A stretch of DNA of 64,000 nucleotides from Bacteroidota bacterium (GCA_016722375.1 JADKJG010000004.1:142-64141), one strand, 5' to 3'; positions 19,039 to 54,160 are shown, numbered from the stretch's first letter. Numbers and translations: made by a program. Notes: a model not told the origin generated them from the letters alone.

Positions 19039-19255
19039 CATTTGATTGAGTTGATATAGCATTTGTCCGTATTGATATAGCATTTCATCGTATTGATGTA
19101 TCAATTCGTTGTAATGCACCATCATTTCATCGTAATGCATGATCATTTTGTTGTAATGCACCATCATTTAATTGCAATGCATGATCATTTCGCTGTAATG
19201 CTCCATCATTTCATCGTAGTGCATGATCATTTCACGGTAATGCTGCATCAATTCT
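19039..19255. repeat. Degenerate 21-nt periodic array 1 (11 units)
   Basis: ca(t/a)tt motif at 19039, 19060, 19081 ... 19249 with exact 21-nt spacing. Confidence 0.9.
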
Positions 19256-19487
19256 ATCGCTTGAAACATCAAGCCTGTGATAATAAAAAACTTCTTTTTA
19301 ATAGTCAATTATAAATAGTTTATGATTAAGATAGCAGTAAACGTAACCTTTATAGAATGTTTGCCGTATACCAATACAACAACATGTTCTAAAGATTAAA
19401 AAAACCAGAGATGGTTATCTAAAGACGGCTAGCGGTTCAACCCTGTGGAAGAACTGATATTTTTTCACTTTTTTAATGTAACCAATT

Positions 19488-20170
19488 ATGAAAAAACAAC
19501 AAAACCAAAGTCCAGCCTCCGGACTCAAAACAGCAGGTCTTTTATTCTCGTTTTCATCGTAGCTGTAACAAGGCTTAGAGGAAAATCGGTTGCTCAAATC
19601 ATCATATTCGTCCGCAATGTGGTGGCTATGATGAACGGCAATCCAAATTTTGTAGATCCGCAGCCCACGCTGGCAGACCTGACTATGGCTATTGATGCGC
19701 TGGCCGCAGCGGAACAAGCGATGGACGGTTCGAGAGCCAAAACCATTGTACGCAATGCGCGCCTCAAAGAGGTGAAGTTTATGCTCAGCGAAGAGTTGAC
19801 TTATGTCAACCTGATATCGCGTGGCAACGCGGAAGTAGGGGTAACCAGTGGGTTTGATATTCGCGATGCGAAGAGTGTGGTTGGCCTTCTTGCTCACCCT
19901 GAACTTTTTGTAGCCTATACGACTACAGTAGAAGGTCAGGTAAAGCTGAAGTGGAACTCGGTTAAAAAGAGAAGCTCTTATATTATTGAGTATGCTTTGA
20001 ATCCGGGACCTGATGCAGTGAAAGGAAACGTGGAGTGCACGAAGGCAAACACAATCCTCAATGGTTTAACTTCTGGTGCATTGTTTTACTTCCGCATAGC
20101 AACAATTAGTACAGGAGGAAACGGGGCTTCAGTCCTTGGATTACCTGCCGTCCTAAATAAGCTGAATTAG
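19488..20170 (+). CDS. Cytoplasmic helical domain plus FN3-like protein (Bacteroidota family)
   Basis: GNPNFVDPQPTLADL helical region followed by GQVKLKWNSV...YIIEY...YFRIA FN3-like strands. The AT-rich-preceded ATG at 19488 is the likely start; no clear cleavable signal peptide. Confidence 0.7.
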
Positions 20171-20178
20171 CTATCAAC

Positions 20179-20213
20179 AAAAAGGCGCTCCCTGAACCGG
20201 GAGCGCCTTTTTT
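20179..20213. terminator. Bidirectional intrinsic terminator
   Basis: aaaaaggcgctccc-tgaacc-gggagcgcctttttt between convergent genes. Confidence 0.9.
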
Positions 20214-20237
20214 GTTTTTATAAAGTTGTATGAGCTT

Positions 20238-21884
20238 TTATGCTTCTACCGCTCTTCTCACTTCAACCGTTTTTTTTTCAGCCGTTTTATAAAGCAGGGA
20301 GGCTTTGATCAAAGCAACGAAAAGCGGATGCGGATTATCCACCGTAGATTTCAATTCGGGGTGAAACTGGACGCCAACAAAAAACGGATGGGTCGGTATT
20401 TCGACAATCTCTACCAAGTTTTTATCAGGGTTGATGCCGGAGGCAATCATTCCTGCGTTTTCAAATTGCTCTAAGTAAGTGTTGTTGAACTCGAAGCGGT
20501 GGCGGTGGCGTTCAGAAATATGTTCGGCTTGATAGACGTGCTCGGCCAAAGAGCCGCGCTTGAGGTCGCAAGGATAGGCACCCAAACGCATGGTTCCTCC
20601 CTTCTTCTTTATTTTCTTTTGTTCCTCCATCATGTCAATGACTGGATACGGGGTTTTGGCGTTCATCTCGGTAGAGTGGGCATCGCGCAGGTCGAGCACA
20701 TTTCGTGCAAACTCAATCACGGCACATTGCATGCCCAGACAGATGCCAAAGAAAGGTATGTTGTTTTCGCGCACATAGCGGATGGCTTCAATCTTGCCTT
20801 CGATGCCGCGAGCGCCAAATCCCGGGGCGACGAGCAATCCATGCAAGTGGCCTAATCTTTCGGCTGCATTTTCGTGTGTAATAAATTCGGAGTGAATATT
20901 TTCAACCACCACTCGCACATTGTTTACAGCCCCGGCGTGAAGAAAGGATTCGTGAATAGATTTATAAGCATCCTGCAATTCGATGTATTTTCCCACCAGC
21001 CCAATCCGTACTTCGTGTTTCGGATTGCGTAGTTTGTTCACGAAGTCATGCCATTTCGACATGTCGGCGATATGGTCTGTAGGAAGTTGAAGTTTTTTCA
21101 GCACCGTAGAATCCAGATGTTCTTTCTGCATTTCGAGCGGCACGGCATAGATAGTATCTACGTCCAGCGCCTGAATGACCGAGGCTTTATCTACGTTGCA
21201 GAACAAGGCCAGCTTGCGGCGCATTTCGTCTGTCAAATCCATTTCGGTGCGGCACACCAAGATGTCGGGGCGCACTCCAATGGTTTGAAGTTCTTTAACC
21301 GAGTGTTGCGTTGGTTTTGTTTTCAGTTCTTTGGCCGATTTCAAATAGGGAATCAGCGTGAGATGGCAAACCAGCGTATCGTGTTCTTCCAGTTCCCAAC
21401 GAATCTGGCGCAGGGTTTCGATGTAGGGCAGCGCCTCGATGTCGCCCACCGTTCCGCCAATCTCGGTGATCACAATGTCGAACTCACCGGTTTGACCCAA
21501 GAGCAACATTCTTCTTTTAATTTCATCGGTAATGTGTGGAATGACCTGAACCGTTTTGCCCAAATAGGCGCCTTCGCGCTCTCTGTTGATAACGGTTTGA
21601 TATACTCTTCCGGTGGTCACGTTGTTTGCCTGAGAAGTGGGGGTGTTGAGGAATCTTTCATAATGGCCCAAGTCCAAATCGGTCTCTGCGCCATCTTCGG
21701 TTACGTAGCACTCTCCATGCTCATAAGGATTTAAAGTACCCGGATCTACATTGATATAGGGGTCAAACTTTTGGATGGTGACTCGATAGCCACGCACTTG
21801 CAATAGCTTAGCGAGCGATGCCGCAAAAATACCCTTACCCAATGAGGATGTAACGCCGCCGGTTACGAAAATATACTTAGCCAT
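20238..21884 (-). CDS. pyrG: CTP synthase
   Basis: [28 protein letters not shown]. Confidence 0.98.
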
Positions 21885-52670: not shown

Positions 52671-52739
52671 CGAAGGTAATTAATTAATGCTCGACCATCC
52701 TCCCTTTCCCCTTCCAACTCGCCGCAAAAAAAGTTAATT

Positions 52740-53380
52740 GATAACGGACCATCAGCCAACTACCAACTGTTTTGGCGCGTCCCCCGCCTCGTTCCTCGGC
52801 GTCGGCCGGGCTTTACGTTCCAATCTTTTCTACTCGTATATTTTAAATAGAAGAAAAGGATTTCCACTGCAATCCCTCGCGCAGCTCAGCGCTCCTTTAA
52901 ACGGATTGTCATTACGATTTCAATTCCATTAAAATCAATCAGAGTATTTAAACTACAAAAGTCTTTAAGACTTTTGTAGTCTTCGACCATTATGGCTAAA
53001 GCCATTTAACAAGAGCCAGATTCTCACCACGCTGAAGCACGCTGTTAATAACTCCGCCATTCATGGCGGAGGGTTTGGAAGATTTGTATTGGCTTTAGCC
53101 GTGATTTAAACTACAAAAGTCTTAAAGACTTTTGTAGTCTTCGGCCAGGCATCAATCCTACGGATTGAAAACCACCGCAAACAAACATTCGCGAATAACA
53201 TCTATCAAGTTCCGTAGGAACTATCTTTTGGTAGAAATGAATAGTCTCCACTGTGCAAGCTCCATCGGAGCGATCGAATGAATACATTTCACGCGGAGCG
53301 CGCAGAGATGCAGAGTATGGAGTCTTTTTACTGTATTTTCTCTGTGTTCCCAGCTACGCTGCGCCCTCTGCGTGGAATAA
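52740..53380. repeat. Second REP/MITE-like mosaic
   Basis: Two copies of the palindrome ACTACAAAAGTCTT(T/A)AAGACTTTTGTAGT flank a GGCTAAAGCC...GGCTTTAGCC element; also a cacgcggag...ctctgcgtg hairpin at 53288-53377. Confidence 0.8.
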
Positions 53381-53583
53381 AGTTAAAAACAAAGGTCTTT
53401 GGGGCTTTTGCAATGGTTTAGTCAAATATAAACCAGATAACGAAAGTTTTCACCTTTCCCATTCACACTCCCTTCCATCGCTTCTTTTTTTGAAATTCTT
53501 GTTTAATTTCAAGATCGTAATTTTTTAATCCTGAAAATTATGGCAAAAGAAAAAACGGATGAGAGGATACCCCCCGGAAATAT

Positions 53584-53822
53584 GGGCCCTTCCGCTTGGC
53601 ACAAGAGCCCTTCTCTTTCCAATGAGGGTCCTTGTCTGAGGAATGAGGGCCCTTTTGTTGAAGTTAAGGGCCCTTCTCACGACGATGAGGACCCTTCTCC
53701 ATAGCATTAGGTCCCTTAGTTAACGGGCTAAGGACCCTTATTTGGAGCGTTAGGTTCCTAGTCTGGAAAATGAGGGCCCTTATGTGGTGGACAAGGGCCC
53801 TAAAATTGAAAATAAGAGTCCA
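53584..53822. repeat. Degenerate 21-nt periodic array 3 (12 units, core AGGGCCCT)
   Basis: Core at 53584, 53605, 53626, 53647, 53668, 53689, 53710, 53732, 53753, 53774, 53795, 53816. Confidence 0.9.
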
Positions 53823-53875
53823 TAAAACACAAAAAGAGGCGATTTTGCCTGTTTTTTGCGTTTTGTGCCGGGTTC

Positions 53876-54160
53876 AATGCGCTCTAATTTTCAATTTTAA
53901 TACGCTCATTTTCCGGCTTGTTGCATTGGCTCGCAGATTAAGTGCAATTACCACCTCCGGCCACCTGCGTTAATTTATAGGATAAATGCACTCACCGCTT
54001 GGCCAGGTGCATTCATTCCGGCGCTTAGTGCACACGTCGCATAGCCAACTGCACAAATCTCCTAGTTTAGTGCATACGCCTCATGGCCAGATGCGCTAAT
54101 TTCTGAGTTTAATGCGCTCACTTCCCACCTAAACGCACACGGCTGTGGTGGAAGCGCGAT
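53876..54160. repeat. Degenerate 21-nt periodic array 4 (about 14 units, core TGC(A/G))
   Basis: Exact 21-nt phase from 53966 to 54155 (10 units), plus earlier units offset by 2 nt. Confidence 0.8.

What the first reader, a model, noticed from the sequence alone, without database searches (positions are those of the whole stretch)
19039..54160. Four unrelated degenerate arrays with strict 21-nt periodicity: candidate undescribed element class
The arrays at 19039-19255, 31151-31368, 53584-53822 and 53876-54160 each have 11-14 units, 220-290 bp length, a short conserved core (CATTT/ATGCAT, CGCATCA, AGGGCCCT, TGC(A/G)) and variable remaining positions. They share geometry but not sequence. 21 nt is both two helical turns and seven codons. 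Two arrays flank stand-alone cytoplasmic helical-protein genes of unknown function, and two contain stops in the frames checked. Hypotheses (inference): phased binding scaffolds for the neighbouring proteins, mini repeat-spacer guide arrays processed to small RNAs, or fast-evolving heptad peptides.
Basis: partly seen in the sequence, partly recalled or inferred. Interest (0 to 1): 0.72.

Follow-up and report, generated by a model that had tools for sequence, protein, structure and literature searches.

The report
Non-coding 21-bp phased repeat arrays
The four arrays are real, non-coding runs of 21-base-pair units, four of about 190 in this bacterial genome. They belong to a published but unexplained class of constant-length repeats, and here they show selection on their conserved cores and a fixed link to two related gene families of unknown function.

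Summary
All four arrays are real. Their lag-21 self-match is 0.72, 0.65, 0.57 and 0.43, against at most 0.42 in 1000 shuffles. They are 4 of about 190 such arrays in this 3.55-Mb Chitinophagales genome; neighbouring periods give 0-5.

They are not coding: there is no 3-base periodicity, and A3 and A4 have stops in all six frames. They are not repeat-spacer arrays: the variable parts are diverged copies inherited between array copies. They show no RNA-hairpin signature.

Between duplicated copies, core positions change 2-4.5 times more slowly than variable positions, so this is not neutral minisatellite decay.

Array A1 sits about 90 bp upstream of an ECF-type promoter of a helical+FN3 gene. 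In that family (48 paralogues), 25 have an upstream array and 1 a downstream array. Array A2 sits just past the terminator of a helical gene; in that family all 4 genome copies, and 6 of 7 in relatives, have a downstream array. The two families share a helical core (hhalign 75%). Array density tracks the first family's copy number across 17 genomes.

The class is already in print (Subirana and Messeguer) and resembles BrickBuilt; the gene link is not. My best reading is phased protein-binding DNA lattices with an unidentified reader.

The parts
19039..19255 (.). Array A1: 10 units of 21 bp (consensus CATTTCATTGTAATGCTCCAT, alternating 42-bp pattern). It lies at the 5' end of an [array - promoter - FN3-tail gene] module.
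   Evidence: TRF period 21/42/63. Lag-21 match 0.72, p<=0.001. One sister array at C3:267760-267960 shares only the repeat.
19343..19368 (+). ECF-sigma-like promoter, GTAAC-N17-CGTA, 88 bp downstream of A1 and about 120 bp upstream of the ATG at 19488.
   Evidence: The motif TGAAACCTTTT-N-CGTA is found upstream of 12 of 48 paralogues, this one included. Next to arrays genome-wide it faces outward 13 times and inward once, with 3.8 expected. Consensus match only; function is inferred.
19488..20170 (+). Family A gene: helical bundle plus C-terminal FN3 domain, with a basic N-terminus. In this assembly it is frameshifted at 19539-19543.
   Evidence: HMM of 46 paralogues. Weak Pfam fn3 hit. AF2 model of a paralogue has pLDDT 87.7, and Foldseek matches only the FN3 domain. 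Contigs of two other samples carry one extra T after 19539, which joins ATG 19488 to the family frame.
31151..31368 (.). Array A2: 10 units of 21 bp (consensus GCATCAATATCGCACCCGCTC). It lies 63 bp past the stop of the family B gene and 125 bp upstream of the small membrane-protein ORF at 30805-31026 (-).
   Evidence: TRF. Lag-21 match 0.65. No codon periodicity.
31387..31418 (.). Perfect GC-rich hairpin with T and A runs on either side: an intrinsic (bidirectional) terminator between the family B gene and A2.
   Evidence: Inverted repeat, 15-nt arms, 93% complementary, 2-nt loop; sequence.
31431..32183 (-). Family B gene: 250 aa, all-helical, no database family. It is remotely related to the helical core of family A.
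   Evidence: 4 copies in the genome, each with a 21-bp array 64-206 nt downstream. In relatives, 6 of 7 copies have one. hhalign B against A: probability 75%, E 2.5e-5. AF2 pLDDT 83, no significant Foldseek match.
53584..53822 (.). Array A3: 11 units with the palindromic core AAGGGCCCTT plus about 11 variable bases, and one 22-nt step. No adjacent family A or family B gene was found.
   Evidence: Lag-21 match 0.57. Stops in all six frames. Collinear, unit for unit, with a copy at C4:71268-71560; shares its tail with an inverted copy at C6:112974.
53477..53843 (.). Possible full extent of the A3 element: 16-nt inverted repeats (53477-53492 and 53828-53843) bracket a roughly 90-bp leader plus the array.
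   Evidence: the repeat finder pair I5, 88% complementary. It is a single pair, so it could be chance.
53876..54160 (.). Array A4: about 13 degenerate units with core TGC(A/G)C, clearest as a 42-bp alternation at 54025-54115. No adjacent family A or family B gene was found.
   Evidence: Lag-21 match 0.43, against at most 0.37 in shuffles. TRF period 42. Stops in all six frames. A 28-nt inverted repeat joins the end of A3 (53801-53828) to the start of A4 (53872-53899).

Best explanation
The four arrays are non-coding cis-elements that act as DNA. Each 21-bp unit carries a conserved core of about 9-12 bp, often dyad-symmetric, plus a freely drifting remainder. The spacing is exactly two helical turns, so all cores lie on one face of the duplex. 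I infer that a sequence-specific protein binds one core per unit and packs side by side into a cooperative lattice of about 10-15 subunits. Selection therefore acts on the core and on the period, not on the rest.

The arrays spread as whole elements: array plus leader and tail, or a 1.3-kb module of array, promoter, gene and terminator.

Two remotely related helical protein families are physically tied to them. Family A (helical+FN3; window gene 19488) carries its array about 90 bp upstream of its promoter. Family B (window gene 31431) carries it just past its terminator. A position fixed relative to the gene, but not relative to transcription, is the pattern of a protein encoded next to its own binding array, as with iteron or centromere arrays. 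The small AraC-type HTH proteins found in some modules are the second candidates.

Shown: reality of the arrays, the non-coding status of A3 and A4 and the lack of any coding signal in A1 and A2, period specificity, selection on cores, gene-family linkage, co-occurrence across genomes, and dispersal as units.

For: - Period specificity: 194 arrays at lag 21 against 1-5 at lags 19, 20, 22 and 23. 1483 of 1627 core spacings are exactly 21, 42 or 63.
- Conservation along the unit is contiguous, not 3-periodic.
- Dyad-symmetric cores (stem of 5 or more) occur in 78 of 194 arrays, against about 24 expected.
- Selection: in ungapped orthologous blocks between array copies, cores carry 5.7% substitutions and variable positions 17.2%. 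The contrast holds at block identity >=0.88 (4.4% against 9.0%) and >=0.93 (1.4% against 6.6%), all p<1e-5.
- Indels between copies show a spike of 58 events at exact multiples of 21 bp.
- Family A: 25 of 48 paralogues have an array within 700 nt upstream and 1 of 48 downstream. The baseline is 188 and 171 of 2796 genes. In relatives, 8 of 19 have an upstream array and none a downstream one.
- Family B: 4 of 4 copies in this genome and 6 of 7 in relatives have a downstream array.
- Families A and B share a helical core.
- Across 17 genomes, array density tracks family A copy number (Spearman 0.85). There are 18 arrays in 1.0 Mb of genomes that have the family, against 1 in 0.95 Mb of genomes with none. 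Both states occur within one genus.
- The gene-plus-array module is duplicated as a discrete 1.27-1.35-kb unit.
- In two family B loci the array lies in a convergent gap, so promoter control cannot be its only role.
Against: - No binding data exist.
- Neither helical family has a recognisable DNA-binding fold. Foldseek matches only the FN3 domain of family A and nothing significant for family B.
- Several family A members have a basic tail followed by a hydrophobic stretch that could be a membrane anchor, and 12 have ECF-type promoters. Both features suggest envelope proteins rather than DNA binders.
- About 87% of arrays have no family gene beside them, and the four largest array families (21, 18, 14 and 10 copies) have none.
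- About 85 different cores would need many specificities.
- The co-occurrence test is not corrected for phylogeny and rests on samples of 57-200 kb per genome.
- Slower core evolution could also reflect a requirement for propagation rather than for host function.
Confidence: 0.5

Rival explanations
1. The arrays are selfish, mobile minisatellite-MITE composites of the BrickBuilt type. They are the internal part of small non-autonomous elements that are copied around the genome. The 21-bp period and the conserved cores reflect what the (unknown) propagation machinery needs, not a service to the host. The link to gene families arises because some elements have captured, or travel with, a gene.
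For: Array families of 21, 18, 14 and 10 copies have conserved non-repeat leaders or tails and a collinear unit order. This means whole-element copying rather than local amplification. A3 is bracketed by a 16-nt inverted repeat. Gene-plus-array modules are duplicated as discrete units. BrickBuilt in another Bacteroidota species has the same leader-array-tail layout, 19 copies and an intergenic position.
Against: No terminal inverted repeats or target-site duplications were seen at the module ends. No transposase family is associated; the IS110 gene beside A4 is a single case. About 85 unrelated sequence families share one exact period, which a single transposition machinery does not explain. 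53 of the 85 families are single-copy.
Confidence: 0.22
2. The arrays are transcribed. They act as repetitive non-coding RNA, for example a sponge or scaffold with one protein-binding motif per unit, or a processed precursor as in type III toxin-antitoxin systems. The neighbouring helical protein would be the RNA's partner.
For: A2 is followed on the + strand by a strong intrinsic terminator, so a leader-array-terminator transcript is possible. BrickBuilt has promoter activity. 52-nt satellites of Bacillus coagulans are reported as transcribed (PMC8625621). Gene-adjacent private repeats recall ToxI-ToxN.
Against: Palindromic cores are Watson-Crick paired in only 60% of unit instances. G-T (442) and A-C (450) mismatches are equal, so no strand is favoured. 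A period of exactly two DNA turns has no meaning for RNA. Arrays lie on either side of genes and in any orientation class. No RNA-seq run holds this genome, so transcription is untested.
Confidence: 0.13
3. The arrays are structural DNA with no specific reader. Any sequence repeated every 21 bp adds its small bends in phase and yields intrinsically curved DNA. That curvature organises the nucleoid, or attracts general nucleoid proteins, in long intergenic gaps.
For: In a wedge model, the actual units repeated at 21 bp give an end-to-end/contour ratio of 0.72 over 210 bp. Periods of 19 or 23 bp give 0.97-0.98. 171 of 527 gaps of 400 bp or more hold an array. Subirana and Messeguer propose a nucleoid role.
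Against: Units are no more bent than their own shuffles (Wilcoxon p=0.54). Curvature alone does not explain purifying selection on specific contiguous cores, dyad symmetry or the fixed link to two gene families. The wedge parameters were recalled from memory.
Confidence: 0.1
4. One or more arrays encode heptad-repeat peptides. Examples are A1 on the minus strand (signal-peptide-like MTIKKKFFIITGLMFQA followed by M-x-H-Y-D-E-M heptads) and A2 (an 85-aa + strand ORF or a 98-aa - strand ORF).
For: 21 nt equals 7 codons. A2 is open in three frames, and A1 is open in one frame apart from a single TAA.
Against: Mismatches among units show no 3-base periodicity in any array (p 0.35-0.86), nor genome-wide. 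A3 and A4 have stops in all six frames. A1's frame is cut by TAA at 19168-19170 and is closed in the sister array. I estimate that a stop-free 21-mer keeps a given frame open about 70% of the time by chance.
Confidence: 0.03

Closest known systems
Constant-length (20-21 nt, also 52 nt) tandem repeats of variable sequence in bacteria (Subirana and Messeguer; PMC8161180 and their earlier survey of 1241 genomes)
   Same: Many arrays per genome share one unit length of 20-21 nt but differ in sequence. They are non-coding, fall into several families per genome, and carry short characteristic motifs. The authors' untested guess is also a protein that needs the fixed size in order to polymerise on DNA.
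   Different: That work is descriptive and names no associated gene. Here the arrays are tied to two related helical gene families in fixed positions. Their density tracks the copy number of one family across genomes. Their cores are shown to be under selection.
BrickBuilt minisatellite-in-MITE of Porphyromonas gingivalis (Klein et al. 2015, PMC4596501)
   Same: Bacteroidota host. Tandem short units without spacers, flanked by conserved leader and tail. About 19 dispersed copies, all intergenic, close to promoters.
   Different: BrickBuilt has a 23-nt unit and is one sequence family. Here the unit is 21 nt and there are about 85 unrelated families with the same period. Many arrays are single-copy, or part of a gene module, and inverted-repeat ends were seen only for A3.
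Iteron and centromere-like arrays next to the gene of their binding protein (plasmid Rep-iterons, ParR-parC, SopB-sopC); named from general knowledge
   Same: Direct repeats in helical phase, private to each locus, next to a small gene, in a position that does not depend on transcription. They co-diversify with that gene.
   Different: These arrays are chromosomal, number about 190, and have no replication or partition genes nearby. The adjacent proteins show no ribbon-helix-helix, HTH or winged-helix fold.
Phased multi-site promoters such as the BvgA-activated fha and ptx promoters of Bordetella; named from general knowledge
   Same: A row of binding sites at about two-turn spacing upstream of a promoter, filled cooperatively.
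   Different: Those promoters have a handful of sites for one known regulator. Here there are 10-27 units and many core sequences. Family B arrays lie downstream of the gene, some in convergent gaps.

Membership tests
Constant-length 20-21-nt variable-sequence tandem repeats (Subirana and Messeguer) | Unit length 20-21 nt (or multiples) in tandem | tested here: met
   Lag-21 peaks in all four arrays. 1339 of 1627 spacings are exactly 21.
Constant-length 20-21-nt variable-sequence tandem repeats (Subirana and Messeguer) | Many arrays in one genome with the same unit length but different sequences | tested here: met
   194 arrays in about 85 sequence families.
Constant-length 20-21-nt variable-sequence tandem repeats (Subirana and Messeguer) | Not coding for amino-acid repeats | tested here: met
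   After removing 40 short ORFs that lie on arrays, only 4 of 194 arrays are genic. No 3-base periodicity.
BrickBuilt-type MITE with internal minisatellite | Conserved leader and tail flanking the array in multiple dispersed copies | tested here: met
   Met for the large families and for A3's family. Not met for A2 and A4, which are single-copy.
BrickBuilt-type MITE with internal minisatellite | Small terminal inverted repeats | tested here: inconclusive
   One 16-nt pair brackets A3. None was seen around A1 or A2 or at module ends.
BrickBuilt-type MITE with internal minisatellite | 23-nt unit of the BrickBuilt sequence family | tested here: not met
   The unit here is 21 nt and the sequences are unrelated.
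CRISPR arrays | Repeats of about 23-50 nt separated by unique spacers of similar or greater length | tested here: not met
   Core of about 10 nt plus about 11 nt. The variable parts resemble each other and are inherited between copies. No phage matches.
Iteron / centromere-like array with adjacent cognate binder | Phased direct repeats adjacent to a particular gene family | tested here: met
   Family A: 25 of 48 upstream. Family B: 4 of 4 downstream.
Iteron / centromere-like array with adjacent cognate binder | The adjacent protein has a known DNA-binding fold and binds the repeats | tested here: not met
   The fold part was tested and no DNA-binding fold was found. Binding itself cannot be tested with these tools.
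Type III toxin-antitoxin (ToxIN-like) | Repeats of 34-45 nt transcribed upstream of an endoribonuclease toxin gene | tested here: not met
   The unit is 21 nt. Arrays lie upstream or downstream depending on the family. The neighbouring proteins match no PADLOC defence-system model and no Pfam family beyond a weak fn3 hit. Transcription is not testable.
Coding heptad repeats | Open frame through the array with codon-like variation | tested here: not met
   Stops in all frames of A3 and A4. TAA in A1's frame. No phase bias in any array. The sister of A1 is closed in that frame.

The most novel reading that the evidence does not exclude
The 21-bp arrays and the helical-domain proteins (family A with the FN3 tail, family B without it) form one previously unrecognised protein-DNA system. 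The helical domain would be a new kind of DNA reader that polymerises along a two-turn lattice. Each paralogue would co-diversify with its private array. The roughly 165 arrays without a gene beside them would be trans sites or relics. Together they would make up a geometric cis-regulatory or chromosome-organising code that occupies a third of the long intergenic gaps.
Probability: 0.22. Interest if true: 0.85.

Novelty: new variant of a known kind. Interest (0 to 1): 0.62.

Why it matters
Constant-length 20-21-nt repeats have been reported across many bacterial groups with no function and no associated gene. This genome supplies three handles that make the question testable.
- The conserved cores are under purifying selection, so the arrays are doing something.
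- Two remotely related helical protein families sit in fixed positions beside the arrays.
- Arrays and one of the families appear and disappear together among close relatives.

If the helical proteins, or the small AraC proteins in some modules, prove to be the readers, this would define a new DNA-binding module and a new form of bacterial cis-element. In that element the spacing, rather than the sequence, is the conserved feature. If not, the arrays are still a large and tidy example of a repeat class that fills 1.4% of a bacterial genome.

Tried and rejected
- RNA evidence: no RNA run holds this genome. The DNA contigs from four other samples that were laid on the A1 region show no differences within the array, so they give no strain variation.
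- The whole-library profile search with the family A alignment was swamped by giant multi-FN3 proteins and told me nothing. The word-index search gave 6 unnamed hits.
- Curvature: units are no more bent than their shuffles, so I dropped curvature as a selected property.
- RNA-hairpin wobble asymmetry: there is none overall. The apparent per-array overdispersion (p=0.0005) is confounded because units are not independent.
- A shared flanking motif: TGTTAA is enriched beside arrays. On inspection it mostly belongs to A-rich gene-start contexts or to family-specific leaders, not to a universal leader.
- Indel-to-substitution comparisons were inconsistent. TRF figures give 0.12. Pairwise alignments give 0.105 in arrays against 0.19 in flanks, with many small and probably compensating alignment gaps. 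I rely on the direct spacing count instead.
- Heptad peptide in A1: rejected.
- Single-sequence hhalign of the 31431 protein against family A was negative (probability 3.5%). Only the ten-sequence profile showed the relationship.
- The arrays have no phage matches.
- The family A paralogue tested and the 31431 protein (family B) match no PADLOC or NCBIfam model. Against PHROGs, family A hits only through its FN3 domain and family B hits nothing.

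
Full report
**Observation**

The window is C4:142-64141 of a 3.55-Mb, 17-contig genome with 42.7% G+C. The DNA runs that hold it are mostly activated-sludge and wastewater metagenomes.

TRF reports period-21/42 arrays at 19051-19259, 31150-31370 and 54025-54115. I cut all four stated intervals into 21-nt units.
- A1 has 10 units, with CATTT and GTAATGC nearly invariant.
- A2 has 10 units, with GCATCA and CGCTC conserved.
- A3 has 11 units with the palindromic core AAGGGCCCTT and one 22-nt step.
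- A4 has 13 weak units around TGC(A/G)C.

Lag-21 self-match is 0.72, 0.65, 0.57 and 0.43, against 0.15-0.39 at every other lag from 15 to 27. Each value beats the maximum over lags 10-40 in 1000 dinucleotide shuffles. 'Strict' is slightly generous for A3, and A4 is the weakest.

**Genome-wide picture**

The four arrays are a small sample of a much larger set.
- TRF on the whole genome gives 274 rows of period 21, 144 of period 42, 51 of period 63 and 29 of period 84. Periods 19, 20, 22 and 23 give 3, 21, 9 and 3 rows.
- A sliding self-match scan gives 163-194 arrays at lag 21 and 0-5 at lags 19, 20, 22 and 23. Together the arrays cover 50 kb, or 1.4% of the genome.
- Of 1627 spacings between successive cores, 1339 are exactly 21, 128 are 42 and 16 are 63. 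Only 13 are 20 and 12 are 22.
- Median array length is about 230-260 bp.
- I made a crude gene call and removed 40 short ORFs that exist only on arrays. After that, 4 of 194 arrays are genic, 87 lie between co-directional genes, 58 between divergent genes and 43 between convergent genes.
- 171 of 527 gaps of at least 400 bp hold an array.
- The arrays fall into about 85 sequence families. The largest have 21, 18, 14 and 10 members, and 53 are single-copy.

**Not coding, not repeat-spacer, not an RNA hairpin array**
- Mismatches among units show no 3-base periodicity in any of the four arrays (p 0.35-0.86).
- Genome-wide, conservation along the unit is contiguous: autocorrelation is 0.19 at lag 1 and 0.04 at lag 3.
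- A3 and A4 have stops in all six frames.
- A1's only near-open frame (minus strand, M-x-H-Y-D-E-M heptads after a signal-peptide-like start) is cut by TAA at 19168-19170. That frame is closed in the sister array at C3:267760-267960.
- The 'variable' halves of units are diverged copies of one another. They are inherited unit for unit between array copies, as in A3 against C4:71268 and in the 16-copy alignment of family 1. They are therefore not acquired spacers, and they have no phage matches.
- Dyad symmetry is enriched: 78 of 194 consensus units have a stem of 5 or more, against about 24 expected.
- Across individual units, however, only 60% of those pairs are Watson-Crick. G-T (442) and A-C (450) mismatches are equal. 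This does not look like a maintained RNA hairpin on one strand.

**Selection**

Many arrays exist as collinear copies, so substitutions since duplication can be counted by unit position. I defined 'core' and 'variable' positions by leave-one-out conservation among the other units.
- In 84 pairs, cores carry 8.2% substitutions and variable positions 20.4% (59 of 63 pairs in that direction).
- I then restricted the test to ungapped blocks of at least 84 nt that are at least 12 points better than the same block shifted by one unit. The contrast holds at block identity >=0.80 (5.7% against 17.2%), >=0.88 (4.4% against 9.0%) and >=0.93 (1.4% against 6.6%), all p<1e-5.
- Between-copy gap lengths spike at exact unit multiples: 50 at 21 nt, 7 at 42 and 1 at 63, against 5 at 20 and 8 at 22.

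**Gene family A (window gene 19488-20170)**
- Clustering the genes that flank arrays picked out one family of about 46-53 paralogues of about 205-250 aa.
- 25 of 48 have an array within 700 nt upstream, typically 90-340 nt from the start. Only 1 of 48 has one downstream. The baselines are 188 and 171 of 2796 genes.
- In relatives, 8 of 19 family genes have an upstream period-21/42 array and none has a downstream one.
- Paralogue pairs show that array, spacer, gene and terminator are duplicated together as a discrete 1.27-1.35-kb module.
- The window copy is frameshifted in this assembly. Contigs from two other samples carry one more T after 19539, which joins the ATG at 19488 to the family frame.
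- Between A1 and that ATG lies GTAAC-N17-CGTA (19343-19368). This is the ECF-sigma-like motif found upstream of 12 of 48 paralogues. Next to arrays genome-wide it faces outward 13 times and inward once, with 3.8 expected.
- An AF2 model (pLDDT 87.7) shows a helical bundle followed by an FN3 domain. Foldseek, Pfam and PHROGs recognise only the FN3 part.

**Gene family B (window gene 31431-32183, minus strand)**
- A single-sequence comparison with family A was negative.
- The gene has three paralogues in the genome, and all four copies have a 21-bp array 64-206 nt past the stop codon. With a 6% baseline, four out of four has a chance of about 1e-5 by simple arithmetic.
- In relatives, 6 of 7 copies have a period-21/42 repeat 77-200 nt downstream. 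Three of these are long and three have only 2-3 units. None has one upstream.
- In the window, a perfect terminator hairpin (31387-31418) separates the gene from A2.
- In two other loci the array lies in a convergent gap, so it cannot be acting only on a downstream promoter.
- A ten-sequence profile of family B matches the helical core of family A: hhalign probability 75%, E 2.5e-5, B residues 39-101 on A residues 61-124.
- The AF2 model (pLDDT 83) is a long two-lobed helical bundle with no significant Foldseek or PDB-sequence match.

**Small AraC-type genes**

The genome holds four matches to a small AraC-type HTH protein (HTH_18 with a CPxCG tail). Three lie directly downstream of an array, and two of those are followed by a family A gene. 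The fourth precedes a family B gene. A further, partly seen AraC-like ORF precedes another family B gene.

**Co-occurrence across genomes**
- Family A is patchy. It is present in 14 of 31 relatives, both present and absent within the same genus. It is found in only 4 of 151 evenly sampled genomes of the phylum, all in the same order.
- I sampled 57-200 kb from each of 16 relatives and scanned them for lag-21 arrays.
- Genomes with at least 3 family copies have 18 arrays in 1.0 Mb. Genomes with none have 1 array in about 0.95 Mb. Control lags gave 1 hit in total.
- Including this genome, Spearman's rho between family copy number and array density is 0.85 (p 1e-5).
- This test is not phylogenetically corrected and the samples are small. 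Still, the states alternate within one genus and recur in two other families of the order.

**Arrays without a family gene beside them**
- About 87% of arrays are not next to a family A gene, and the four largest array families never are.
- These are dispersed whole elements with conserved non-repeat leaders or tails and a collinear unit order.
- This is the layout of BrickBuilt in Porphyromonas gingivalis: 23-nt units, leader, tail, 19 copies, intergenic, with promoter activity.
- A3 belongs to a three-copy family of this kind and is bracketed by a 16-nt inverted repeat.
- A4 and A2 are single-copy. A1 has one sister that shares only the repeat.

**Mechanism**

Five findings fit best with DNA-level binding sites for a protein that packs one subunit per unit on one face of the helix:
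- an exact two-turn period;
- contiguous, often dyad-symmetric cores;
- selection on those cores;
- tolerated unit-length indels;
- a position tied to a gene but not to its direction of transcription.

The mini-AraC proteins are the second.

Against this reading, neither helical family shows a known DNA-binding fold. Some family A members look membrane-anchored and are driven by ECF-type promoters. Most arrays have no such gene nearby.

A wedge-model calculation shows that any 21-bp repeat is intrinsically curved: the end-to-end/contour ratio is 0.72, against 0.97-0.98 at 19 or 23 bp. The actual units are no more bent than their shuffles (p 0.54). Curvature may come for free but does not explain the cores. 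The wedge parameters were recalled from memory.

**Comparison with what is known**

The phenomenon of constant 20-21-nt units with variable sequence, many per genome and non-coding, is in print for many bacteria, with function unknown (PMC8161180; PMC6749651). The four arrays meet every defining feature I could test. The leader-array-tail form matches BrickBuilt except for unit length and sequence family. CRISPR, type III toxin-antitoxin repeats and coding heptads each fail a defining feature.

I did not find in print:
- the fixed-position link to the two helical families;
- the co-occurrence with family A across genomes;
- the selection on cores.

Earlier notes of this scan had already flagged the family A link in other genomes. 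I re-derived it here independently. I added the family B link, the homology between A and B, the genome-level co-occurrence and the selection test.

**Verdict**

The feature is real and non-coding. It belongs to a described but unexplained class, so it is not a new class of element. It is more interesting than a plain minisatellite because it is under selection and tied to specific orphan protein families.

Noticed in passing
window 19539-19543: The family A gene is frameshifted in this assembly at a T run. Contigs from two other metagenome samples have one more T, which puts ATG 19488 in frame with the rest of the gene. This is either an assembly or homopolymer error or a strain-level pseudogene.
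   Followed up: partly
window 19168-19308 and 18874-19167, minus strand: On A1's minus strand, a signal-peptide-like start (MTIKKKFFIITGLMFQA) runs into Met/His-rich M-x-H-Y-D-E-M heptads, cut by one TAA. I judge it non-coding, but the N-terminus is oddly gene-like.
   Followed up: partly
window 52800-52890, minus strand: Flavo-1 RNA (Rfam RF01705, 56.8 bits), about 700 bp from A3, between the large T9SS-type gene and the arrays.
   Followed up: no
window 54504-55517: IS110-family transposase (DEDD_Tnp_IS110 plus Transposase_20), 340 bp past A4. Its non-coding 5' region (about 54180-54500) was not examined for a bridge-RNA-like structure.
   Followed up: no
window 53801-53828 and 53872-53899: The last unit of A3 and the first units of A4 form a 28-nt inverted repeat (82%) around a small terminator-like hairpin at 53837-53850. 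The two arrays therefore meet head to head.
   Followed up: no
G000 C1:19141-19548, C7:101736-102131, C1:150004-150201, C6:154654-155085 (L149 155-586), C7:57301-57555 (L147 2-256): A small family of stand-alone AraC-type HTH proteins with a C-terminal CPxCG motif. Every copy found lies within 1 kb of a 21-bp array, either between an array and a family A gene or just before a family B gene.
   Followed up: partly
window 53111-53287 (minus) and L148 1529-1945: A dispersed repeat that translates to ...FYQ(K/R)(I/V)VPTELD(R/S)C... occurs near A3 and twice in tandem beside another family B array. It is a second kind of interspersed element in the same gaps.
   Followed up: no
window 4067-6253: Long tandem repeats of 237-240 and 473 nt (83-93% identical). 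My crude gene call places ORFs over parts of this stretch (3713-4786 and 6078-7370), so they may be repeated protein domains. They are unrelated to the 21-bp arrays.
   Followed up: no
window 17949-18530, minus strand: A NYN-domain (PIN-like nuclease) gene lies on the far side of A1 from the family A gene. I saw no evidence that it is linked to the array.
   Followed up: no
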